This document shows, piece by piece, positions 4,393-63,586 of a stretch of 64,000 nt of DNA. This DNA comes from Flaccisagitta enflata (Eukaryota). Numbering within the stretch: position 1 is the first letter of the stretch; every line of letters starts with the position of its first letter. A program made the position numbers and the translations under genes. The notes beneath the pieces were generated by a model that searched no databases, had not been told where the DNA came from, and worked only from the letters and a program-made list of their open reading frames with translations. The stretch spans positions 4,216,001-4,280,000 of the forward strand of contig OZ231126.1 of assembly GCA_965153355.1 (NCBI GenBank), in the 5' to 3' direction.

Positions 4393-5246
4393 CAGGCCTG
4401 TATATTCTTGAGTTTTCCCCCCCCCCGGGGGGGGGGGGAAAAAAATCAAAGGATCTGGAGATGGGGAAGGAAATCTAAGGGAGGAAAAAGAGAAAACTAG
4501 TCATCCAAGGATCGCACATGGTCAGCGGTACCCAATGCCCTGCTGGGAGTGATCCAGTGAAGAAGTGGAGTGAGAGCAGGGCAGCGGCCCCAAAAGGCCG
4601 ATGTCCTGTAGAACACAGGGGGGAATTTCCATACGTCCTGAGGAGGCACATTTCTGGCAATAGATGACTGATTCAGGCCAAAGAAGGCATATTTGAAGGC
4701 TGGAGGGCAGAATTTAGGCTTTGAGAGTGGATTTGAGGTTTGGAGGGCAAATTTGAGCCACAGAGGGCTGATTTGATGCTTGGAGGCCTAGTTGAAGGTC
4801 TGGAGGGCAGATCTGAGGTCTGTAGGTCAGATTTGAAGCGGGGGGGGGCTGATTTGAGGCCTAGAAGGCTGATTTGAGGCCTGGAGGGCTAAATTTAGGG
4901 CTGGGAGGGCAAATTTGAGGCCTTGATGGCCAACGGGGGGGGACGGACGGACGGACGGACGGACGTATGGAAATTCCCCCCTGTGTTCTACAGGACATCG
5001 GCCCTTTGGGGCCGCTGCCCAAAAAGGAAATTTGGGGAAAATATAACTTTTTACAGTACCAAATCATAAAACTCAATTAGTAGAACATAATTTAACACTA
5101 TTTAAACCTTTACTACATAGTTTTATTGCTATGTGGGGAAGAAAATCATGGATATAAAAATGCGACGCGACGCGTCGCGGGGAAGAAAATCAAAGGCAGG
5201 GGGGGGGGGAAAAAAATCAAAAGCGACTCAAGAATATACACCCCTG
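4393..5246. mobile_element. Non-autonomous hAT-type element
   Basis: Termini CAGGCCTGTATA...TATACACCCCTG, exact 8-bp TSD CTAGAAAC (4385-4392, 5247-5254). Related copies at ~18754-18933 and ~23042-23671. Confidence 0.85.
4495..5025 (+). mobile_element. HINE/DINE-1-like (Helentron-associated) element
   Basis: Subterminal inverted repeat GGGCAGCGGCCCC...GATGTCCTGTAGAACACAGGG, central ~20-bp tandem repeats, (GGAC)n, A-rich insertion site; absent from the 23042 copy of the host element. Confidence 0.65.
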
Positions 5247-23817: not shown

Positions 23818-26800
23818 TCATCTACAAATTATAGCTTTTTTGACATTGCCGCAAAAACTACGAAAAGCGAATCTGAAATTGTTGGAAGCGATGAGATAAA
23901 TGCCGAGATTTATACTCGACGTCATCACACCAATCAGATAACTTCCGTAACGCCACCGCGACTGAGTCGCTTCCAAACGATCGCGACAATCCAAAGCGAA
24001 AACGAAATCTAACAAAACGATTATATGGGAACAACTAAACGCCAAAGCGACTAATGCTACCAACTTCTTAAAGTCATCTTCGGTTTTCGCTTTGGATCGA
24101 CTATTTTCGGCGTAACGCGATTTATCTTTAGATCGACTATTTTCGGCGTAACGTGAACGGAAGTGGAGTTTGATGAGTACGAAAAGGGACAATATTAACT
24201 CGATTATCATAAACGCGATCGAATTAACGATTCCAAACCAAGAAGAAACGATAAATCGGGGAAGGTCTAAAAGAGGCGGGATGAGAGAATTGACTAAAGC
24301 TAATACAAAAGTGTAGACGATTGTAATCAATGACGTGATGACGGTTAATTCTACCAAAATTCTCTTTTGAGTTTTGGTTTGACTTTCCATGGCAGAGGTG
24401 ACGTTTTTCAGGGCCCAAGCACGAACGAAGGAGATGTAGAGTATCATGGAACTATTGATTCCCTTGCAAAGAAGACAACTCCAGAACACGACTTGAAAAC
24501 CGTGGAAGCAAAATCGTTGCGCATGACTGTTGAAAAAAAAAGGGAGGGGGGGGGTGGTAGATGATGATCATTAATTGTATTAAGGATCAGGGTACTCTTG
24601 ACGTCCGCGCAAAGAAGACAACTCCAAAATACAACTTGAAAACCGTAGAAGCAAAATTGTTGCGCTTGACTATTGAGAAAAACGGGGGGTGGGGTACCCA
24701 GATGATGTTCCTTAATTTGCCCAAGGGCTACATACCCTGTATTGGCTCTCCATTCAATATTGTTTGGTTCTGAGTAGAAAAATCAGGATTGAAGGGCAGG
24801 GGCATTTTCACAGTTTTCAACGTTAGCATCACGGATGGACCAACAGACGGACGGATAGACAAAGCCTCACTTACAGACTGCAGTAGCAACTCCGCAACTT
24901 AGCCATGACAAGCAAACGTGGTACAGGGTCATCCACCTGAGTTGTCGGATTCTGTTAAGCTTTTCCTCTCTGATGCCAAGAGACATGGATTTGAAATTGA
25001 TCAAGTCTTAAAGAGTATAGATTAACATTTTTTGTATAAAAATTTCAGCCATTTCACCTTGATCTGGGGGCTGAGAAAAACCCGAGATGAATCTCAATAG
25101 TTTAAATTACATGAAAAGCATACTTCTAGCTGCCCCAGTGAGATGAAATTTTACATGAAGAAAGCTGATGGTTTTGCAGAGTTTCAGTTAAAATTTCATC
25201 TCACTGGGTTAACTAGAAGTATGCTTTTCATGTAAATTAAGCTATTCAAACATGCTAGATTCATCTCGGGTTTTTCTCAGCCCCCAGATCAAGGTGCATT
25301 TTGGTCAAGTAGTTTGTCTTTAACATGGATTTGAACATAAAGCTTTTATTTCTGGACTGAGCAGATTTTCCAGGAATTGTGCAAGTTACCAACCCAATTA
25401 GTTTTTGAATTTTTTTAGTAATCAATCCAAAACAGGCTTGAATCAGAAACGATATTAAAGTATTTCAATATATTTGTCAGTTTATCTTTCATTTGAGATT
25501 AATTTTCTCTCTATGTCAAGAATAGTAAAAAAAAATGAAAATGAATGCAAGCAGGATTCAGAATATCTGATAGACAATCTGTAAAATGGTAAAATACTTG
25601 TGTCACTTCAAACTTATGTAAAAGACAAACTACTTGACCAAAATGGCTGAAATTTTTATACAAAAAATATCAAGCTATACTCTTTAAGACATGATCAATT
25701 TCAAATCCATGTCTCTTGGCATCAGAGAGAAAAAGCTTAACAGAATCCGACAACTCAGGTGGATGACCCTGTAGATTGAAGAACTGAACAACGGACGGAC
25801 TTGCCAAAAAATGGTGGATGAAGTCGCGTACACGGGACTAATATTAGAAAATCAGGGTATCTATTAATAGGGAGTACAGTTACACCCCACTTGAACGGAC
25901 CCAAGAGTAACGGTAAGCCTGTAATAACGGATTTAGCTTATTGGTCCCTTCAAATTATCTTTTTTAACATTTCCTTTGTTAGCAAAAACAGAAATCATTT
26001 TCCAACAAACAACCATCATCTTGTATTACCACCTGGCCCGAGCGTGAAACCGGAAGTTCGTTCCGGTTGCGGAAAAAGGGCAGGGTCGCTCCAAAACGAT
26101 AATGGGCTGCTTGGCCGTGACGGTAACGGTATTCAGAAGAAGAAGAGGAAGAAGAAAAGAAAAAGAAAAGAAAAAAGAAGAAAAGAAAAAAAAAGAGAAG
26201 AAAAAAAAAAAGAAAAAAACGGCGAAAAGAAAAAAAAGAAGAAAAGAAAAAGAGAGAAAAAGAGTTGTAACCACAGATGAGTAAATACAGATACTTATGA
26301 TTATTGAAGACCTGTAATGTTGTCCTACTCATACCGTACCGTCCCCGACACGATATTTCAATAAATTGCATCGCTACGCCAGGTGGCTGAAAATGGCGGT
26401 GTTGCAACGTCCACGGAATAGAGGTTTACCGCAATGTCACGCTCGGCCCAGATTACCACCCTTACCTCGTGCAAGGCAGACACAAGTCAATGCCGTTAAA
26501 CGAATCATCTTATATTACCACCCTTACCTCGTGCAAGGCAGACACAAGTCGCAATTCCAACTGAAGACTGTGATCGTGAAAGTCCCAACATTAACGAGAA
26601 TATCCGAGAAAGCCAATGATGTTAAATGAATTATCTTGTATTACCACCCTTACCTCGTGCAAGGCAGACACAAGTCGCAATTCTAACTGAAGACTGTGAT
26701 CGTGAAAGACCCAACATTAACGAGAATATCCGAGAAAGCCAAAGCAGTTAAATGAATCTGCGCCTGAGTCCGACGTTGATTGAGTCTCATAGACTCCTTC

Positions 26801-31004: not shown

Positions 31005-31340
31005 AAAAGTATTTGTGGGTAAGGTATAGATGCATTGGCCAGAGAAGGACAGGCTATGGAGCTCACCGGAACACCTTATCTATAAATGAAACTGACTGTA
31101 AAGTGATCCTTTAAATGAGTTATACCTACCAGTAAAGGTGACTCTCGCCGACCAGAAAAAATCGTAAGATAGTCATGTTTTTTCAGTTCCTTCTCTCTCC
31201 TCGTTATATTCACGCGCCTGTGTGTGTGTGTGTATGTGTGTTTGTGTGTTTGTGTTCGTGTGTGTGTGCGTGTGTGTGTGCGTGTGTGTGTGTGTGTGTG
31301 AGTCTGTCTGTCTGTATGTCTGGCTGTCTGTCTGTCTTTC

Positions 31341-31388
<48 letters not shown>

Positions 31389-31390
<2 letters not shown>

Positions 31391-33376
31391 GCAATGAAAA
31401 TGTGGGAGATCAAGCTGGTATTGAATCACGACAACGGCTCACTTGAGGTCCCAAACATAAGAATTAAACGTGGTATCTTCCAAGGTGATACTTTATCCCC
31501 CCTCCTCTTTATACTTGCTCTAAACCCTCTCAGCTTCCTGTTAAATGAAGGTGGGTGTGGATACAAGATAGACGGAATATGTTTTAACCACGTTTTATAC
31601 ATGGATGATATCAAGACGTTTTCCAGCAATACCAAGGACGGAGTTAAACTGATCAAAATAATGTTTGACTTCTCTAAAGATATTGGCATGTCGTTTGGAA
31701 TCGAAAAATGCAAAGTCCTTAACGTGGTAAGAGGGAAATATGCAAAGCTAGGAGGTGTACAGCTCCCAAACGGGGATTTTATTGAAGAAATGGACGAGGG
31801 GGATGTATACAAATACCTTGGGGTTGTTGAATCGACAATGATCAAGCATGCAGAAATGAAACAGAAAATCCTTACAACATTCAAAAAGCGAGTAAAAAGT
31901 ATTCTCAAATCAGAACTAAACTCTAGAAATATTATGATAGCTATCGGGGAGTATGCTGTACCGGTTATGTCGTACACATATGGAATAATTAACTGGACGG
32001 AGGAAGAAATAAAGAATGCAGACCTACTAGTAAGAAAAAACTTAAATATGTATAAAATGTTTGAGCTTAAAAGCGACATAGACCGACTATACATCCCTCG
32101 ATCGATGGGCGGAAGAGGTTTACAATCAATATGGGATGGCTTCAAATGTGCCAATGTCAGAATAGCACACTACATGACTGGAAGTGTTGACCATCACATG
32201 AAGGTATGTGCCAATTTTGACAGGCAGTGCCTTTTCTCTATCATAAAACGTGCTGAAAAATTCTCCACCTTACACAATCCACCCACTCCCGAAAACATTG
32301 AGAGTAGACCATTGCTCAGACAGGCCAAGATTGTAGCACAGAGGTTGCGAGAAACAATCTACAAAGACAGATATGAACTGTTCCTTGCAAAACCCCAGCA
32401 TGGTGCCCTTATGCGAATAATGAAAGAAAACGACACTGATATAAAAACAAGTTGCTCATGGATGGACAAATGTCACCTCTCGCCCCAATCTGAAGCATAT
32501 ATATGTGGCATGCAGGAAATGGCCATTTTTACCAGATGGCATGAACACCATATCATTAGAAATAGAGACTCCGACTTATGTAGAATATGCAAAAAAGAAC
32601 CCGAAACAACCTTCCACATACTTTCCGGCTGTGATGTTCTAGCAAAAAAAGAATACTTTGATAGACACAATAGTGTTGCTAAATACATTCACTACCAAAT
32701 ATGTAAAAGATATGGAATCCAAACTGAGCCAAAATGGCACTTACACAGACCAGCAGAGGTGTACATAGATGGGAAAGTTGAACTCCTGTGGGACATCCCC
32801 ATCACCACTGCAAGGATGATTGGTGCAAATAGGCCAGATATTGTCGTAAGAGACAAAAGTAACAAGGTAACATACATAATCGATATCAGCTGCCCCTGTG
32901 ACACAAATGTACATAGCAAGGAGGTGGAAAAAATCTCCAAATATTGTAGTCTGCGAGTCGAACTAGCGAAGATGTGGAATACTGAATGTGTTGTTATACC
33001 TGTAATTGTGGGTGGATGCGGTACTGTTTCAAAAGAATTTACAAATTACCTTGGGATGATCCCGGCTGAATTGCAACCTGAAATGTGCCTGAAGATTGCC
33101 TTACTAGGGAGCGAAAAAACCATGCGCTCTTCTTTATCGAGAAAATGATAGCAATCTCCCTGTATGGACTGGTGTTGCCATTACGGCCCAATTCGTTTGT
33201 TCAAAGTTGGCCTTTGTTGGATTACATATGTAGTGGACTACTTGAATCAAAACCTCATCATCAACCAAAACAAAACAAACGAAGAAATTCTGAATTGCCT
33301 TTAGGATTAGGTCAGTCCTCGGCTATCAGTCTTATGTTTCCAAGACAGTTCGATCTTATGCAAGTACATGTATAAA
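31389..33376 (+). mobile_element. 5'-truncated RLE-type non-LTR retrotransposon (R4/Dong-like) in a (TC)n tract
   Basis: (TC)n on both flanks; open RT-RLE ORF followed by ~230 bp of 3' UTR ending TATAAA. Confidence 0.9.
31394..33148 (+). CDS. Partial retrotransposon ORF: RT, CCHC zinc knuckle, restriction-like endonuclease
   Basis: GIFQGDTLSP, LYMDD, YKYLG, YIPRSMGGRGL, CRIC..ETTFHILSGC, RHN, RPDIV..IDISCP..EK..KY; no internal stops. N-terminal RT domains are missing. Confidence 0.92.
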   Translation: MKMWEIKLVLNHDNGSLEVPNIRIKRGIFQGDTLSPLLFILALNPLSFLLNEGGCGYKIDGICFNHVLYMDDIKTFSSNTKDGVKLIKIMFDFSKDIGMSFGIEKCKVLNVVRGKYAKLGGVQLPNGDFIEEMDEGDVYKYLGVVESTMIKHAEMKQKILTTFKKRVKSILKSELNSRNIMIAIGEYAVPVMSYTYGIINWTEEEIKNADLLVRKNLNMYKMFELKSDIDRLYIPRSMGGRGLQSIWDGFKCANVRIAHYMTGSVDHHMKVCANFDRQCLFSIIKRAEKFSTLHNPPTPENIESRPLLRQAKIVAQRLRETIYKDRYELFLAKPQHGALMRIMKENDTDIKTSCSWMDKCHLSPQSEAYICGMQEMAIFTRWHEHHIIRNRDSDLCRICKKEPETTFHILSGCDVLAKKEYFDRHNSVAKYIHYQICKRYGIQTEPKWHLHRPAEVYIDGKVELLWDIPITTARMIGANRPDIVVRDKSNKVTYIIDISCPCDTNVHSKEVEKISKYCSLRVELAKMWNTECVVIPVIVGGCGTVSKEFTNYLGMIPAELQPEMCLKIALLGSEKTMRSSLSRK

Positions 33377-33391: not shown

Positions 33392-33422
<31 letters not shown>

Positions 33423-33432
33423 ACATATACAA

Positions 33433-33529
<97 letters not shown>

Positions 33530-33556
33530 TTTCCCATTTAGTTACTTTTCTTCCAG

Positions 33557-35633: not shown

Positions 35634-41326
<5,693 letters not shown>

Positions 41327-43192: not shown

Positions 43193-44950
43193 TAACCTTT
43201 CTGCACTCAAAAACTTTTTTTTTCTAATAATTATAGCAAAAAATTATATCAATCGCGGACGAAATTATATGACATAACAATTATGTAAAAGTCATTGTAT
43301 ATCGAAATTATATTTCATCCCACCCATTTTGCCGGTAATCCGTGGAATATTTTAATTATATCATATTGAAGGTAGACGAAATAATTCTGGATTCATTAAT
43401 ATATTTTTTATATCACTTTTACTTCGAGATTTTTCATAAAGTGCCATAACACTAAGTCTCACCAAAAATCAAAGTGTTTTGGCAATATAATAAGTATATG
43501 GTCCGAAAGAGTTGCGCAAAATGCTCATTTTTTCCCGCGTTAGAGTCATCTGAAGTATTATAATTAGATTGTGGAAAAACTTTAGTAAAAATGCAAGCCA
43601 TTTTTTACGACAGAGTTTTCTAAACTATAACGATTATAACGTACAGCCACTTTAACAAAATAGACAGTCATGTAATTGTTCTTTTTTCGTACAAAAAACA
43701 CAACGCCGAAATATTACATCTATCGACCATTTCATTTTTCCGAGAACACCCAGAAGGTTGCTCTTTTGTTCAATGACGGAAATTCCTCTCGCCGCAGATT
43801 AGGCAACAGCGGCAGCGCAGCACGCCCAGCGTAATGCTGCGGACCGCAGCAAAAAATCGACGATTGCGTAAAAATTTTTACAATTATTTGTTCGCGCCTG
43901 TTGGGGATGCTGCCCGTTTTTTGTAGTGGACTAATTCTTTTTTTCCCCCCTTTTCCAGATTCGTAAACGTTTTTCGAGCGGCAGCGCAGCACGCCCAGCG
44001 TACTGCAGCAAAAATTCGACGATTGTGTAAAATTTGTTCACGCCTGGTGGGGATGCTGCGCACCCTTCACCAAGCTATCTTTGGACGGACTCGGCTTTCG
44101 TGCCCCAAAATCGTTGGAGAAGCGCAAACGCGAAGATGCTGGACGGTCGACGCCGAGAATGACGGAGGAGAATGAATTTATATGACTGAACGGGAAATGA
44201 ATGAAGGACGAGGAGAATGAATGAAGGGGGTGATGAATGAATGGCGGAGGAGATGAATAACTCATGAATGACTCATCCTATATGAAGGGCCTTACGAGCT
44301 GACTGATGAATGGCCTAGTGAATGGCCTCGTGAATAGCTTCGTGAATGGCCTCGTGAATAGCTTCGTGAATGGCCTCGTGAACGGACTTATGAATGGTCT
44401 TTTGAATGACCTCGCCGGAGATGAATATTGGAGGAGCTCATGAATTATCATCTAGATATCATTGTTATTTGTCATTTTCGTGCTCATTTTCATATCCATT
44501 TTCATGCTCATTTTCATGCCCATTTTTGTACTCATTTTTTCGCTCATTTTGATAAGGTTTTGAGGGAGTATCAGCATTTTTGTCTTGTTGGCTTTCTTTA
44601 CATCTGTTACTGATTTACCCCTACTTATCAAGTGCCGAATCGCGCGCGCGTAACATCCATATCGTGACTGTTTTGCGGCTTGCTAGAGACCCGGATTTCT
44701 CGCATTTTACACCGATATTCGAACGACGAACGGCCCGGCTGGACAGCCTATAGAGATCCGCGTTTATCATCAAACGGCGCGGCCGGCGAGCGGACATTTT
44801 CACACCTCCGCCGCCGCCGCCACCGGAGAAGCTTCCGTACGAATTCCGAAGGCGAGCGGAGCATCATACTGTGTTCCAAAAAACACTGTTGTCAAGCAAC
44901 AATGGCCCCAAAATATCGAGTGTAAAGGAACCTCTGACTTGGCCTCATTG

Positions 44951-45942
44951 CACTTTGTTCTGAGAGTGACTCAAAATTGGACAAAATTTATCTGATGGAT
45001 TTATTATGTTATAATACTGTAAATTTATATATTATTTCTAAAAAATATTATTTATTTCCTTTTTAGTCATTTTTGTCATTTTTTTGTCATTTTTTGTCAT
45101 TTTGTCATTTTTGTCATTTTTGTCATTTTACATTTTATTATTTTTTTTATTATTTTTTTTATTCATTATTTTATTATTTTATTAATTTTTATTAATTTTT
45201 GTCAATTTTATTAATTTCACATTATTAATTCATTATTTTTGTAATTTTATTACTTTTGTCATTTTTTATTATTTTATTACTTATTATCATTATTTTGTCA
45301 ATTTCATTAATTTTGTCAATTTCACAATTTTATCAATTTTCATTAATTTGTCAATTTGGCTATTTTTTTCCATTTTTTGTCATTTTTGTCATTTCTTGTC
45401 ATTTTTTGTCATTTTTGTCATTTTTGTCATTTTTCTTCACATTTTCGCTTATTTTCTGGCCATTTTATTATTTTTTATTATTCATTATTTTATCATTTTG
45501 TTGTTTTTGTCATTTTTTGTCATTTATTTTCATTTTTTGGCTATTTTTTACATTATTATTTTATTGTCTTAATACTATTATTTTGTCATTTTTTATCATT
45601 TTTGGTCATTTTTTGATGCATTTTTTTAATTAATATTTTTGCCTTTGTGTTTTTTTGTGATTTTTTGTGATTTGGGTCATTTTAGTAACTTTGGTCATCT
45701 AAGTCATTTTGGTCATTTTAGTTAATTTAATCATTTTAATCATTTTAGTCATTTTAATCATATCAGGTATCTTAGTCATTTTGGTTATTCTTGTGATTTT
45801 CTATTAAAAAAAAATAACAAAAAAGGCAAAAAATAAAAAAAATATTATTTTTTATATATAATATGTAATTTTACAACATTAAAACATAATAAATCTATCA
45901 GATGATTTTTGTCCAATTTTGAGTCGCTCTCAGAACATAGTG
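44951..45942. mobile_element. Non-autonomous Transib-like element
   Basis: CACTTTG...CATAGTG termini, ~90-bp imperfect TIR, 5-bp TSD CATTG (44946-50, 45943-47), TTTTGTCA-rich interior. Confidence 0.8.
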
Positions 45943-46019
45943 CATTGTGAGAAGCCGCCAGAGGCAAACACTATCGGCGACAACAACATATAACTTCGGT
46001 TGTACAACACCCACGATCG

Positions 46020-46490
46020 TCAAATCCGGCAAAAAGGTGAAGCACAACTGTGGGTACATGAACCACTTCGATCTGCGACGCCACGAGCCTCCAGTCCGTC
46101 ATCAAACGCATCCGCATCCCGTCCTCGACGAACCGCCGCCGCCCACAGCAACAATAACGTCTTTAGCTTCGCACCATGCACTTCAGATCGCCGTAAATGT
46201 AAAGGTGGAGGACACTTAGGGGTACATGAACCAACTCGATTCACGGCCCTCCGAACCTCCAGCTGCCCGCCAACCGCATCCCAACTGCGCCTCCGACAAA
46301 CCGCCGCCGCCCACAGCAACAACAACGTCTAGCTCCGGCACCACGACACTCAGGATCGGCAAATGCGGGGAAAAGGCGGAGGACACTTAGGGGTACATGA
46401 ACTAACTCGATTAACGGCGCCTCGAACTTCCAGTCTCCCGCCAACCGCATCCTAATCGCGTCCTCGACGAACCGCCGCCGCCACATTCAA
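46020..46490. repeat. ~170-180-bp degenerate tandem repeat, ~2.5-3 copies
   Basis: GGAGGACACTTAGGGGTACATGAAC and AACCGCCGCCGCC recur. Confidence 0.7.
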
Positions 46491-50323: not shown

Positions 50324-52077
50324 TGATAATGATTTGATTGGAAACTATTTTGTTCAGATTAGAAATTGCCAAACAGTAAATAGGAGGGGCGGTTATGCTC
50401 AGAAATTCATGTTTCAGACGGCAGATTTTTAAACATTCTGAGCAGCATCAATTTCTCACCATAAGACTTGAATTATGCTTTACTGCCTTTTAAACTGAAT
50501 GAAAATGTTTCAACTGAAAAGATAACTTTGATTTAAGAGAAACTAAAAATTGAAGTTATCTTGCTTTGAGCTGTGCTAATTGGCCTTTATCATTTCTATT
50601 TAAACAATATTAAGCGATTTCTCTAATTCAACCGAGTAAGCCAGTATCATTTGGTGCAGGTTTGTTTTATCTAAGATTTCGGCACTTTATCAAAATGTTC
50701 ATGAATTATTGTAGATGAGATACATCATGCTCAATATGCTACGTGAGTGAGGCCGGCCACGCAGCGATAAAACATGCACATGAATTACGACACCCTTTAG
50801 CATTGTATGTACAGTTGAACCCCGCAATAACGGATGTCAACGGACTCACAAATCTTTTTAGTTATAGGTGGATTTCTGCTATTGCCAGAAAAAGATTATC
50901 ATGAAGGGACCAAGATTTGTTATGGGATGACTTTAGTTACTCCTGGATTCGTTATAGCGGGTTTATGTATGAGAGTTGGGAAGAGAGATCAGTTTCAGAT
51001 CAATGCATTTTCAACCAGCTAAGGCAAGATAGATATATAGTAACACATCCGCTAATACAGTCACTCAGCAAGCGACTTAACCTTATGATGAAAAGAATTT
51101 CATTGAGTAGAAACTTGCCTTGATTGAGTACTGGATGGAATGTCAAACTTGGTTCTTTGATTCTTATTTATTCTTCTCATCCGAACTCTAAATCTCAAGG
51201 GGCTTATTTATACTCCGTACAATTGCGTTTTTGAAACGGGTCACTTGATTAATCACTCGCTGAGTTCGTTCGCTCACACTGCTCATTCCATTCACTGGCT
51301 ACGTAGCTCTTTGCTTTGCTGGTTTGCCTACTCCAAAGTTAGTAGGTTAAAACAAGAAGATACAGTTGAACCCCGCTCTAACGGACCCGCCAGCAATGGA
51401 ATTCCATGTAAAACTGACGCGAACTCATAGTCCGTTCAATTGGTTTTTTTTTAAGTTGTTGTTAACAAAATTCTGCCTAAAACAAATAGAATTTATGGGT
51501 CCCTTGAAATCTGTCAGAGCGGGGTTCAACTGTATGTGTTCGCGCTGAAAACGCGATTAGTGGGAATAGACGTGATTGTTGTCAATAAAAGAAACACTCC
51601 CTGAGTACTGGATGGAATGCCAAACTCAATTATTTGGTTCTTATTTGTTCTTCTCATCCTAAGTCTGAGCCCTTCGGAGAGAATAATGCGGAGGCACAAA
51701 GAGAGACAAAGAAAATAAAAGGAGATGAGACAAAGAAAGAAACATAGGAAATAAAAGGAGATGAGACGAAGAGAGAGACAAAGGAAATAAAAGGAAATAA
51801 AAAGAAATGAGACGAAGAGAGAGACAAAGAAAATAAAAGGAAATGAGACAAAGAGAGAGACAAAGAAAATAAAAGGAAAAGAGACAAAGAGAGAGACAAA
51901 GAAAATAAAAGGAAATAAAAAGAAATGAGACAAAGAGAGAGACAAAGGAAATAATAGGAAAAGAGATAAAGAGAGAGACAAAAAGAAGCTGAGGCAAAGT
52001 CAATTCACCTGCGAAGCTCAAAAAAGGTATTTCAAGTTGATGTGAGCCTCGTCGCCTTCTTTCCAGTCTGATGGAAT

Positions 52078-52391
<314 letters not shown>

Positions 52392-52837
52392 GAGAGACAG
52401 ACAGAGAGAGAGACACAGACAGAGAGAGAGAAAGAAAAAGAAGAGAAAAAGCGAAGAGCGACGGACTGTAGAAGGAAGACTGAAAGAAAGACAAATGGAC
52501 AGACAAACAGATACACACACAAAAGAAGTGAGAGGGGAGGATGTCAGGCGAATTGGTGAGCATAAGTCGACAGAGTAAAGATATCTCTCTCTTTCTCTCT
52601 CTCTCTCTCTCTAGGCTGATGAAAGCATAGCAAACATCATCGTTGATCATTTTTAATAGATGTGGCTTATCAGTTTTCGAGTATTTTTTTTTCTCCTTCC
52701 CTTCCATGAAATATTGATATGTATTACTTTGCTTACAAATCATGCCACCTCCTAAATAAAATGCTCTTCAAACGAAAGGTTTTAGAAAAAGATACTCTCT
52801 AGATGAAGAACAATCAGCAAATAGTCGCAAAAGCGTT

Positions 52838-61101: not shown

Positions 61102-61237
61102 GGGAAAATTGAATAGCATTCAGAAGAAATCAAATAAACAAAAATTTGTGAATGATGTTGAGGTTTACCGATGCTGTTGAAGGTACAAAGAATTTGCGTG
61201 AAAGAAATGAAGAGGCTGAAGATAAAGACGAAATATC

Positions 61238-61376
<139 letters not shown>

Positions 61377-61386
61377 AAAAGAAGAA

Positions 61387-61462
<76 letters not shown>

Positions 61463-61477
61463 AAAAGAAGAAAGAAA

Positions 61478-61547
<70 letters not shown>

Positions 61548-61589
61548 AAAAGAAGAAAGAAAGAAAGAAAGAAAGAAAAAAAGAAAAAA

Positions 61590-61621
<32 letters not shown>

Positions 61622-61623
61622 AA

Positions 61624-61718
<95 letters not shown>

Positions 61719-63586
61719 AAAAGAAGAAAAAAAGTAATGCAGCCGAAAAAAAGAAGGTAAAGAAGAAGAGTGATACAAAAAGAAACAAGGCCAAGAAGGC
61801 TGAGGATGAGTCCTCTTTTAACAAATGTTTTTTGCGAATGAATGTTTTTTATGAATGAATGTTTTTATGAATCTATGACATTTATGAATGAATGAATGAT
61901 TTGTTGAATGAATCATTTCATGTATGCCAGTTTCACTGGATTGGTACCACTTTTTTACTGACCAACAGACAATCCAACCAACCAACGGACACAGGCTATT
62001 ATAGAGATGTGAGGATGCAGCTAAAAAAGAGGGAGTGAGAAAAAAGAAAAGTTAGAAATAGAATTCAGGGTATGACAGAAAGATGCAAACAACTTCCCTC
62101 CTCCTGCATTAAAAAAAAATCCGATCAAGAAAATAGCTTCCATGGCAGCTTACCTGCAAACGTCTCAGCAGCAGCTCTTCAACTGCAGCAACCCAAAACG
62201 ACAGCAACAGCAGCAACAGCAGCAACAGCATCAGCAACAGCACCTACTCAAAACGACGGCAACACATCGTAAAAGTTTATTAATGACTTATTGTAGCGCG
62301 GGTGAGAGTCTTCAAGCGTCCGTGACAGCTTCATGGTCTGTCCGTCAGTCCATTTCTAGATGGACTAATGAAAGAACTACAGGCTTTTCTAGTTCAGCAA
62401 GTAGTTTGTTTTGTTTTGTTTTGTTTTTTTGTTGTTTTTTTTTTAATTTTGTATTCATGTTTTCTTTTTTGTTTTTTTGTTTTTTTTGTTTTTTTGTGTT
62501 TTTTTTCTTATGACAACTTTCAGGCCTGTCCATCGGTCCGTCGACATATACATGCGTTAATCCATCCGTCCGTCCACCTTGTTTATTGATTAAGCGTAAT
62601 TTTTGCGTTGCCGCTCCTGACAAATTGCCAAACTAACCTTCTACTAATGTATTACTGTTGTACCTACTGAAGTACTGGCCCTACCCACCGCACGGTACCA
62701 AGAATGCCGCGCATCCGGCATTGATAAGTTGACTGGCCAGCTCAATGCCTTAATTAGCCTTTTCATCATTGCCCTTGCCCACCCACACATTATCATAGGC
62801 TTCAACTAGTTTTGCCCCATTTCGAATTTCCTCATCTCTCTTTCTCCACAACTGTTCCTTTGTCTTTGATCAACTTGCTCCTTCTTCATCTTCATCTTCT
62901 TCATCTTCATCTTCATCTTCTTCTTCTTCCTCTCCTTCTCTTTCCTCCCCACCACCAGCTACATCACCCTTCCATCATCCTTCCATCACCCCTCCATCAG
63001 TCTCCCATCACACGGTCCGCATCTCGCGCCTTACTTAACTGTCACCCAAGGAGGTGAGTACACACATAGAGTCAACCTCCACGTCAGTGGCTTTTTTTTT
63101 CAATCACTTGGGCGGCAACAGCAGCAGCAACAGCAACAGCAGTAACAGCAGTAGCAGCGAATGCAGCTGTCAAGGATCTTTTTTTTGAAGGTGATGGAAA
63201 GGCAGCGGCGTTGTACTGGCAAATGATTACGTTGAGGCTTTTTCTGTTTGCACAACTCCTTACCAACCTCAACATCTTTCCATTCTTCCTCCTCCTTATC
63301 CTCCTCCTCCTCCTCCTCGTCCTTCTCCTCCTCCTCTTCCTCTTTCACCTTACCCTCGATTTTACGCCCTCTTAAATCATCGTGGGGATGGGCAAAGAAA
63401 AAAAAAGGATAAAAAAGGAGGTTAAAAAGTAAATGAAAAAGCAAAAGAAGAAGAACAAGAAGAAGAAAATGAAAAACAAGAAGAACAAGAACATGAAGAA
63501 CAATAACAAGAACATGAAGTAAGAAATAAGCAGAAGAAGAAGAAGAAGAAGAAGAAGAAGAAGAAGAAGAAGAAGAAGAAGAAGAA

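What the first reader, a model, noticed from the sequence alone, without database searches (positions are those of the whole stretch)
25050..25301. Transib-like MITE with near-canonical 12-RSS at both ends
Both termini read CACCTTG-ATCTGGGGGCTG (12 nt)-AGAAAAACC. The V(D)J consensus is CACAGTG-12-ACAAAAACC, so the heptamer matches 5/7, the nonamer 8/9 and the spacer is exact. There is a perfect 5-bp TSD (CATTT), and the host's opposite TIR shows the empty site. CAC ends with 5-bp TSDs are established hallmarks of Transib/RAG-like transposons. Inference: a recently active RAG1-like transposase in this genome recognises symmetric 12/12 RSS-like ends.
Basis: partly seen in the sequence, partly recalled or inferred. 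Interest (0 to 1): 0.72.

Follow-up and report, generated by a model that had tools for sequence, protein, structure and literature searches.

The report
Transib-type MITE with RSS-like ends
A 242-base non-coding mobile element with the end sequences and 5-base target duplication typical of Transib (RAG1-related) transposons sits inside another transposon; it is a real but fairly ordinary member of a known class.

Summary
A 242-bp element lies at 25055-25296. Its termini are identical (CACCTTG-12-AGAAAAACC, perfect for 40 nt). It is flanked by a CATTT duplication, and the opposite arm of the host element holds the uninterrupted site. Contigs of four public runs show many host copies lacking exactly these 247 bases. 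They also show many relatives of the element that begin or end exactly at 25055 and 25296. A blind scan of the window for CAC...GTG inverted ends with a 5-bp duplication found only this element and a second one at 44951-45942. That one has TSD CATTG and ends of the form CACTATG-23-ACAAAAATC, the textbook Transib type. CAC ends, 5-bp duplications and CAWTG-like targets fit Transib as described in print. The nonamer is no better conserved than the "spacer", either within the family or between the two elements. No transposase gene could be found. The copy differs by about 2% from its family majority. Verdict: new member of a known kind, modest interest.

The parts
25055..25296 (.). E1: 242-bp non-coding palindromic element (MITE), the subject of the finding
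   Evidence: Boundaries from the TIR, the TSD and the empty site. Contigs of other copies start matching at 25055 and stop at 25296 (table 8, records 1, 2, 3, 9, 20, 24). No ORF of 80 aa or more overlaps it.
25055..25094 (+). Left terminal inverted repeat, 40 nt perfect; reads heptamer CACCTTG, 12 nt ATCTGGGGGCTG, nonamer-like AGAAAAACC, then CGAGATGAATCT
   Evidence: (pair I3); the fold pairs the first 40 nt without a break
25257..25296 (-). Right terminal inverted repeat, the exact reverse complement of the left one
25050..25054 (.). Left copy of the 5-bp target site duplication CATTT
   Evidence: joint 25049->25297 with 5 letters fitting both sides
25297..25301 (.). Right copy of the 5-bp target site duplication CATTT
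24922..25773 (.). Host element: a larger foldback or inverted-repeat repeat with ends TA|CAGGGTCATCCACCTGAG, into whose left arm E1 is inserted
   Evidence: I1: 133-nt arms, 96%; I4: 39-nt arms, 90%; loose ends at 24922 with low-agreement flanks (102, 83, 52 and 12 contigs in X1, X2, X3 and X5)
25641..25656 (-). Empty (uninterrupted) target site in the opposite arm of the host: cagcCATTTtggtca
44951..45942 (.). E2: second Transib-type non-autonomous element, 992 bp. TSD CATTG (44946-44950 and 45943-45947). Ends are CACTTTG-23-ACAAAATTT and CACTATG-23-ACAAAAATC. The interior is AT-rich with short tandem units.
   Evidence: (I1: 145-nt arms, 84%)

Best explanation
E1 (25055-25296) is a non-autonomous miniature element (MITE) of the Transib superfamily of cut-and-paste DNA transposons. 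It lies in a marine eukaryote; an arthropod is suggested, but only as a lead.

Shown: it inserted into the left arm of an older foldback element and duplicated 5 bp (CATTT). It belongs to a family with very many copies that share the same two boundaries.

Inferred from what is established for Transib and RAG: a RAG1-core-like DDE transposase, encoded elsewhere in the genome, binds the identical ends. It nicks at the 5' CAC, excises the element through hairpins on the flanking DNA, and integrates it with a 5-bp stagger.

The sequence determinants are most likely the heptamer plus the adjacent block of about 9 nt, and an A-tract centred on positions 23-26. These are the positions shared with the second element, E2. 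This is not an RSS-style arrangement of a conserved nonamer and a free spacer. The near-canonical 12-RSS appearance is the known family resemblance between Transib ends and RSSs.
For: The 5-bp TSD is proven by a paralogous empty site. It is also shown by 10, 3, 7 and 2 contigs (X1, X2, X3, X5) that join 25049 to 25297 across exactly 247 bases with 5 ambiguous letters.

The tips are CAC...GTG and the TIR is perfect for 40 nt. The family is multi-copy: 3966, 4208, 1157 and 390 contig records were laid on 24920-25430, host element included. Pieces begin at 25055 or end at 25296, and the flank beyond 25296 has low agreement (0.53).

A blind scan of the window for CAC/GTG inverted ends with an exact TSD returned exactly 2 elements at TSD length 5 and none at lengths 4, 6, 7 or 8. 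All 20 shuffles gave 0.

The second element, E2, has the textbook Transib end CACTATG-23-ACAAAAATC.

Kapitonov and Jurka 2005 (PMC1131882, passages read) state four relevant points. Transib is the only superfamily with 5-bp TSDs. Its TIR consensus is CACAATG-23-AAAAAAATC, with heptamer positions 1-3 and nonamer positions 5-6 invariant. Some families target CASTG or CAWTG. hAT ends always have G at position 3. E1 and E2 meet the invariant positions, and their TSDs are CATTT and CATTG. A 2026 preprint (10.64898/2026.08.26.747230, passages read) reports a CARTG TSD for another Transib.
Against: No transposase was seen. Of the 263 stop-to-stop ORFs of 80 aa or more in the window, 0 hit a DNA transposase or RAG1 family and 1 hit RVT_1.

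No genome is held. Two metagenome scans found 0 copies.

TSDs of other copies of the family could not be read, so the 5-bp rule rests on one E1 copy and one E2 copy.

The TSDs are AT-rich, whereas Transib and RAG targets are described as mostly GC-rich.

The heptamer CACCTTG matches the Transib consensus CACAATG in only 5 of 7 positions.

The 2026 preprint shows that TSD length and end sequences vary within Transib, so these hallmarks are supportive and not decisive.
Confidence: 0.78

Rival explanations
1. E1 is mobilised by a RAGL transposon (a RAG1-like plus RAG2-like gene pair, ProtoRAG type, family A or B) and not by a plain Transib. Its A-rich nonamer would be read by a nonamer-binding domain with a GRPR/K motif.
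For: RAGL transposons also have CAC heptamer ends and 5-bp TSDs (PMC7204232, passages). [quoted passage not shown] That arrangement resembles the heptamer, conserved 9 nt and A-tract pattern shared by E1 and E2.
Against: RAGL-B ends have an A-rich block at residues 8-10; E1 has ATC there and E2 has TTC. RAGL-A ends are asymmetric in length; both E1 and E2 are symmetric. If the host is an arthropod, which is only a lead from the relatives of the window's reverse transcriptase ORF, then Martin et al. 2020 found no RAG-like sequences in Arthropoda, while Transib is common there. No RAG1L or RAG2L ORF is in the window.
Confidence: 0.1
2. E1 belongs to another cut-and-paste superfamily that can give short TSDs (a 5-bp-TSD hAT subgroup, or a CACTA/Chapaev-type element). 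Its likeness to an RSS would then be chance.
For: RSS-like strings at 3 or fewer mismatches occur by chance about 0.8 times per 64 kb. That hAT subgroups with 5-bp TSDs and CAC-ended CACTA-type elements exist is recalled, not tested here.
Against: The third terminal base is C, whereas hAT ends always have G there (legend of Fig. S7 of PMC1131882). The TSD is exactly 5 bp by the empty site, not 8 and not 2-4. Two unrelated-looking elements in one window both combine CAC tips, a 5-bp TSD and an A-rich nonamer at 12 or 23 nt. Given CAC, the chance that the other 13 consensus positions match with 3 or fewer mismatches is of the order of 1e-4 to 1e-3 per end (my calculation, not a tool result).
Confidence: 0.07
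3. It is not a transposon insertion. It would be a local palindromic duplication or an assembly artefact inside the host repeat.
For: The element is almost a perfect hairpin, a form that replication or assembly errors can create.
Against: Contigs from four runs of two studies carry relatives of the element with the same boundaries, apart from the host sequence. They also carry host copies without it. The 5-bp duplication and the clean empty site are the signature of transposition.
Confidence: 0.02

Closest known systems
Non-autonomous Transib elements (for example the TransibN1-N3_AG families of Anopheles gambiae; Kapitonov and Jurka 2005, PMC1131882)
   Same: Short, non-coding, CAC...GTG ends, 5-bp TSD, RSS-like ends with a heptamer and an A-rich nonamer, and CAWTG/CASTG-like targets.
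   Different: The described families have 23/23-like or 12/23-like ends. E1 has 12-nt spacing at both ends. Its heptamer is CACCTTG, and its TSD is AT-rich.
V(D)J 12-RSS (CACAGTG-12-ACAAAAACC)
   Same: CAC at 1-3, TG at 6-7, an exact 12-nt spacing, a nonamer match of 8/9 with AA at positions 5-6.
   Different: It flanks a transposon interior and not an antigen-receptor gene segment. Both ends are of the 12 type, so a 12/23-restricted enzyme would not pair them. The 'spacer' is as conserved as the nonamer.
RAGL-A transposon ends of Ptychodera flava (Martin et al. 2023, PMC10629977)
   Same: [quoted passage not shown]
   Different: Those ends differ in length by 10 bp between the 5' and 3' sides and begin the second block with adenines. 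E1 is symmetric, and its second block is ATCTGGGGG.
E2, the second element of this window (44951-45942)
   Same: CAC ends, 5-bp TSD beginning CATT, 12 of the first 16 nt identical (CACYTTGWTCTGRGRG), and an A4 tract at positions 23-26.
   Different: E2 has 12 more nucleotides between the heptamer block and a shared GATGRAT motif, which gives it a 23-spaced nonamer. It is 992 bp and not palindromic throughout. Similarity beyond the heptamer is only borderline: 17, 38, 159 and 376 of 1000 shuffles reach the observed score for the four pairs of ends.

Membership tests
Transib superfamily (DNA transposon) | 5-bp target site duplication | tested here: met
   CATTT on both sides, a single CATTT in the paralogous empty site, and a 247-base skip with 5 ambiguous letters in 22 contigs of 4 runs. 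Shown for one E1 copy and one E2 copy only.
Transib superfamily (DNA transposon) | Termini 5'-CAC...GTG-3' with a CACNNTG-type heptamer | tested here: met
   CACCTTG at both ends. The match is 5/7 to the Transib consensus CACAATG quoted.
Transib superfamily (DNA transposon) | Second conserved A-rich block (nonamer-like, AA at its positions 5-6) at 12 or 23 +/- 1 nt from the heptamer | tested here: met
   AGAAAAACC lies at exactly 12 nt. E2 has ACAAAAATC at 23 nt.
Transib superfamily (DNA transposon) | An autonomous relative with the same ends that encodes a RAG1-core-like DDE transposase | not testable with these tools
   No genome is held. There were 0 hits in two metagenome scans. None of the 263 ORFs of the window is a transposase.
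Transib superfamily (DNA transposon) | Target preference (GC-rich, or CASTG/CAWTG/CARTG in some families) | tested here: inconclusive
   The TSD CATTG of E2 fits CAWTG. The TSD CATTT of E1 fits 4 of 5. Both are AT-rich, and n = 2.
MITE (structural class) | Short, non-coding, with TIRs and a TSD, and in many copies | tested here: met
   242 bp, no ORF of 80 aa or more, 40-nt perfect TIR, and thousands of contig records with 60 or more distinct contigs at single positions in X1 and X2. An exact copy number cannot be derived from contigs.
RAGL (RAG1L-RAG2L, ProtoRAG-type) transposons | A-rich block (TR2) at TIR residues 8-10 | tested here: not met
   E1 has ATC and E2 has TTC at positions 8-10. 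The criterion is from PMC7204232.
RAGL (RAG1L-RAG2L, ProtoRAG-type) transposons | A convergent RAG1-like/RAG2-like gene pair between the TIRs of autonomous copies | not testable with these tools
   No genome is held. Nothing of the kind is in the window.
Functional V(D)J recombination signal (12-RSS) | Borders an antigen-receptor V, D or J segment and pairs with a 23-RSS | tested here: not met
   Both flanks are arms of another transposon. Both ends are of the 12 type. No immunoglobulin-type domain appeared among the 263 ORFs scanned.
hAT superfamily | Third terminal nucleotide G; TSD usually 8 bp | tested here: not met
   The third base is C. The TSD is 5 bp. The criterion is from the legend of Fig. 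S7 of PMC1131882.

The most novel reading that the evidence does not exclude
E1 and E2 would be sister families of one Transib lineage whose ends differ by a single A-tract-bearing unit of about 12 nt, roughly one helical turn. One genome would then amplify both a symmetric 12/12 and a symmetric 23/23 substrate. If one transposase with a nonamer-binding domain serves both, this is a natural system in which the 12- and 23-type signal ends arise by unit duplication before any 12/23 rule exists. It would bear directly on how asymmetric RSS pairs originated.
Probability: 0.1. Interest if true: 0.6.

Novelty: new member of a known kind. Interest (0 to 1): 0.3.

Why it matters
RSS-like ends on Transib elements have been in print since 2005, so the element adds a family and not a principle. 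It has some value in three respects. It is a clean, nested insertion with a proven empty site. It is an abundant family in a marine animal genome for which no transposase is yet linked. It shows a 12/12 end type next to a 23/23 end type in one genome. If the transposase were found to carry a nonamer-binding domain, the pair could be used to test how spacer length is read by a transposase that predates RAG.

Tried and rejected

2. Copies in public collections: two exact-pattern scans of metagenome contigs found 0 loci. One scan of viral contigs gave a single 22-nt match, L001. It lies inside what reads as coding DNA of a viral contig, is not preceded by CACCTT and has no inverted partner, so it was rejected as chance.

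3. A transposase in the window: Pfam scans of all 263 stop-to-stop ORFs of 80 aa or more gave only RVT_1 (31142-33148) and low-complexity hits. E-value limits were 0.01, 0.001 and 0.0001. Rfam gave 0 matches.

4. More ends of the E1/E2 type in the window: the 16-nt consensus at up to 3 mismatches gave 7 matches against 6.2 expected, and only the 4 known ends are real.

5. E1-E2 homology beyond the heptamer: the shuffle test is borderline for two pairs of ends and not significant for the other two. It is kept as suggestive only.

6. An empty paralogue of the E2 site: none is in the window. The right flank of E2 is itself locally repeated at 46201-46481.

7. Host taxon: the Atlas places relatives of the reverse transcriptase ORF mostly in Arthropoda. 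This is a lead only. A paper search for Transib in marine crustaceans was badly framed and returned nothing relevant.

8. Copy number from depth: the laid stretch lies wholly inside repeats, so it gives no single-copy baseline.

Full report
**1. The observation**

The string CACCTTGATCTGGGGGCTGAGAAAAACC occurs at 25055-25082 on the + strand and at 25269-25296 on the - strand with no mismatch. These are the only 2 matches in the window at up to 3 mismatches, and none of 100 shuffles gave a match.

- The inverted ends are perfect for 40 nt.
- The whole 242-bp element is a near-complete palindrome: about 80% self-complementary by BLAST, and a single hairpin of -100.7 kcal/mol as DNA, z = -23.7 against 200 shuffles.
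- CATTT flanks it on both sides (25050-25054 and 25297-25301).

**2. The insertion is real**

The element sits in the left arm of a larger inverted-repeat element, 24922-25773.

- Left arm: 24922-25054 plus 25297-25335.
- Right arm: 25607-25773 (pairs I1 at 96% and I4 at 90%).
- Read in reverse complement, the right arm gives ...aaaatttcagcCATTTtggtcaagtagtttg.... This is the same sequence as the left arm, without the 242 bases and with one CATTT.

Contigs of four public runs were laid on 24920-25430. Two runs are labelled with one coded organism and two are marine metagenomes; together they come from two studies.

- A joint 25049->25297 skips 247 bases with 5 letters fitting either side. It is seen in 10, 3, 7 and 2 contigs of X1, X2, X3 and X5. 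These are host copies, or alleles, without the insertion.
- Relatives of the element occur apart from this host context. Contig pieces begin to match exactly at 25055 (records 1, 2, 3, 9, 20) or stop exactly at 25296 (records 9, 24).
- The letters beyond 25296 agree poorly between contigs (0.53).

In all, 3966, 4208, 1157 and 390 contig records were laid, host element included. Single variable positions inside the element are covered by 60 or more distinct contigs in X1 and X2. The family therefore has many copies. A copy number cannot be derived, because the laid stretch holds no single-copy baseline.

**3. What kind of element**

I scanned the whole window, without reference to the finding, for pairs of CAC.../...GTG ends. 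The criteria were at least 12 of 14 complementary positions, 50-8000 bp apart, and exact direct repeats of a set length on both flanks.

| TSD length | Pairs found | Comment |
|---|---|---|
| 5 | 2 | E1 and E2 |
| 4, 6, 7, 8 | 0 | |
| 3 | 3 | low-complexity |
| 2 | 81 | mostly (CA)n tracts |

All 20 shuffles gave 0 at length 5.

The two pairs at length 5 are E1, the finding, and a second element, E2.

- E2 spans 44951-45942 (992 bp) with TSD CATTG.
- Its arms are 145 nt at 84% complementarity.
- Its ends read CACTTTG-23-ACAAAATTT and CACTATG-23-ACAAAAATC.
- The second end matches the 23-RSS consensus with 3 mismatches. It matches the Transib consensus CACAATG-23-AAAAAAATC with 6/7 and 8/9.

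Kapitonov and Jurka 2005 (PMC1131882; passages read) state the following.

- Transib is the only superfamily with 5-bp TSDs.
- Heptamer positions 1-3 and nonamer positions 5-6 are invariant in Transib ends.
- Most families are RSS23-like at both ends, and a few are RSS12-like at the 5' end and RSS23-like at the 3' end.
- Some families target CASTG or CAWTG.
- hAT ends always have G at the third position.

E1 and E2 meet each of these points, apart from the end types: CAC tips, AA at nonamer positions 5-6, and TSDs CATTT and CATTG. A 2026 preprint (passages) reports a CARTG TSD for another Transib. It also warns that TSD length and end sequence vary within the superfamily.

I therefore assign E1 to Transib as a non-autonomous member, on structural hallmarks only.

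**4. What could not be shown**

- No transposase was found. No genome is held for the window.
- Two exact-pattern scans of JGI metagenome contigs returned nothing. A viral-contig scan returned one chance match in coding DNA.
- Of the 263 stop-to-stop ORFs of 80 aa or more in the window, none hits a DNA transposase or RAG1 family in Pfam. One hits RVT_1, at 31142-33148.

The distinction between a plain Transib and a RAG1L-RAG2L (RAGL) transposon as the mobiliser therefore rests on weak indicators.

- RAGL-B ends carry an A-rich block at residues 8-10 (PMC7204232, passages). E1 has ATC there and E2 has TTC.
- RAGL-A ends are asymmetric in length (PMC10629977, passages). E1 and E2 are symmetric.
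- Relatives of the window's reverse transcriptase are mostly arthropod (a lead only). RAG-like genes were not found in arthropods by Martin et al. 2020.

**5. Is the nonamer read as a nonamer?**

Within the family, one search lists every position at which at least 10% of the laid depth differs from the window.

- No such position lies between 25025 and 25100, nor between 25254 and 25326.
- Ten such positions lie in the interior, 25101-25253.
- So the whole terminal 46 nt on each side is uniformly conserved: heptamer, 'spacer', nonamer and 18 further bases.

Variant ends appeared among the loose ends.

- One, seen in 1 contig of X5, has one change in each of the three parts: CACCTAG / ATCTAGGGGCTG / AAAAAAACC.
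- Another, seen in 2 contigs of X3, keeps the heptamer and spacer but has AATATATTG in place of the A-tract.

Between E1 and E2 the agreement, by part, is:

| Part of the end | Positions | Agreement |
|---|---|---|
| Heptamer | 1-7 | 6/7 |
| Next 9 positions | 8-16 | 6/9 |
| Last 3 'spacer' positions | 17-19 | 0-1 of 3 |
| Nonamer | 20-28 | 4/9 (only the A4 core, positions 23-26) |

The pattern is a heptamer, an adjacent conserved block and an A-tract. This is closer to the 'heptamer-TR2-spacer-nonamer' layout described for invertebrate RAG-like ends than to a free spacer.

Caveats:
- The family is young, so the within-family test has little power.
- Contigs lose power near repeat boundaries.
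- The E1-E2 similarity beyond the heptamer is only borderline. For the four pairs of ends, 17, 38, 159 and 376 of 1000 shuffles reach the observed score.

**6. Is the RSS likeness more than chance?**

A 12-RSS-like string with 3 or fewer mismatches is expected about 0.8 times per window, and 6 of 100 shuffles reach the 3 observed. The figure for 23-RSS-like strings is about 0.9. The bare match is therefore unremarkable.

What is not expected by chance is the placement. Three of the four tips of the only two elements with CAC ends and a 5-bp TSD are such matches, at the canonical spacings. This is the known resemblance between Transib ends and RSSs, not a new link to V(D)J recombination.

**7. 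Age**

- The TIRs (40/40) and the TSD (5/5) are intact.
- This copy differs from the depth-weighted majority of its family at 25101, 25130, 25166, 25182 and 25247, where nearly all of the depth reads the other letter.
- At 25141 and 25253 about half of the depth reads the other letter in three of the four runs.
- That is 5 to 7 of 242 positions, or 2-3%.

The insertion is young relative to its host, whose arms are 96% alike. It is not evidence of current activity. The contigs that lack the insertion cannot be assigned to this locus rather than to other host copies, so no insertion polymorphism is claimed.

**8. A lead**

In X1, X2 and X5, 44, 52 and 11 contigs match from 25183 rightward but carry a different, mutually similar sequence to the left (table 7). 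These are relatives that share the terminal arm of about 114 nt and have another interior. They may be longer family members, and they are the place to look for the parent element.

E1 and E2 differ by 12 nt between the heptamer block and a shared GATGRAT motif. E2's extra segment looks like a second copy of a CAAAATT unit. This gives a simple route from a 12-spaced to a 23-spaced A-tract, but on present evidence it is only suggestive.

**9. Verdict**

The Transib-type MITE reading is supported at about 0.8. The claims of recent activity and of RSS-style 12/12 recognition are not shown. This is a new member of a known kind. Symmetric 12-spaced ends are not among the end types named in the passages I read; I did not search systematically for them, so I make no claim that they are not in print.

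Noticed in passing
window 24922-25773: The host of the MITE is itself a high-copy foldback element of about 600 bp without the insertion. Its ends are TA|CAGGGTCATCCACCTGAG, and TA stands on both sides, as in Tc1/mariner-type (Stowaway-like) MITEs. Contig matches stop at 24922 with diverse flanks. Summed depth over its arm is the highest in the laid stretch.
   Followed up: partly
window 44951-45942: Second Transib-type element (E2) with TSD CATTG and 23-spaced nonamer-like ends. Its interior is made of AT-rich short tandem units (TTTTGTCATTTT and variants).
   Followed up: partly
window 31142-33148 (+): A 668-aa open frame with a reverse transcriptase domain (RVT_1, E = 3e-12). It is a retroelement fragment, and its nearest Atlas clusters are mostly arthropod.
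   Followed up: partly
window 4614-4985: A perfect 24-nt inverted repeat, CACAGGGGGGAATTTCCATACGTC, 372 bp apart. Its complementarity continues into the flanks (TAGAA / TTCTA), so it is part of a longer foldback element with ends further out.
   Followed up: no
window 24500-24551 and 24643-24694: Two direct copies of a 52-nt unit (83% alike) ending in A/G runs, 143 nt apart, just upstream of the host element.
   Followed up: no
window 33420-33530, 36367-36451, 38010-38026: Long (CA)n/(TG)n microsatellite tracts. They produce most of the spurious CAC/GTG inverted pairs in the scans.
   Followed up: no
window 61130-61864 and 52018-52767: Stretches open in four to six reading frames at once, with no Pfam hit. 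They are low-complexity or repeat sequence rather than genes.
   Followed up: no
window 45943-46481: The right flank of E2 is locally repeated: 46201-46310 and 46316-46481 are 70-75% alike to 45977-46142.
   Followed up: no
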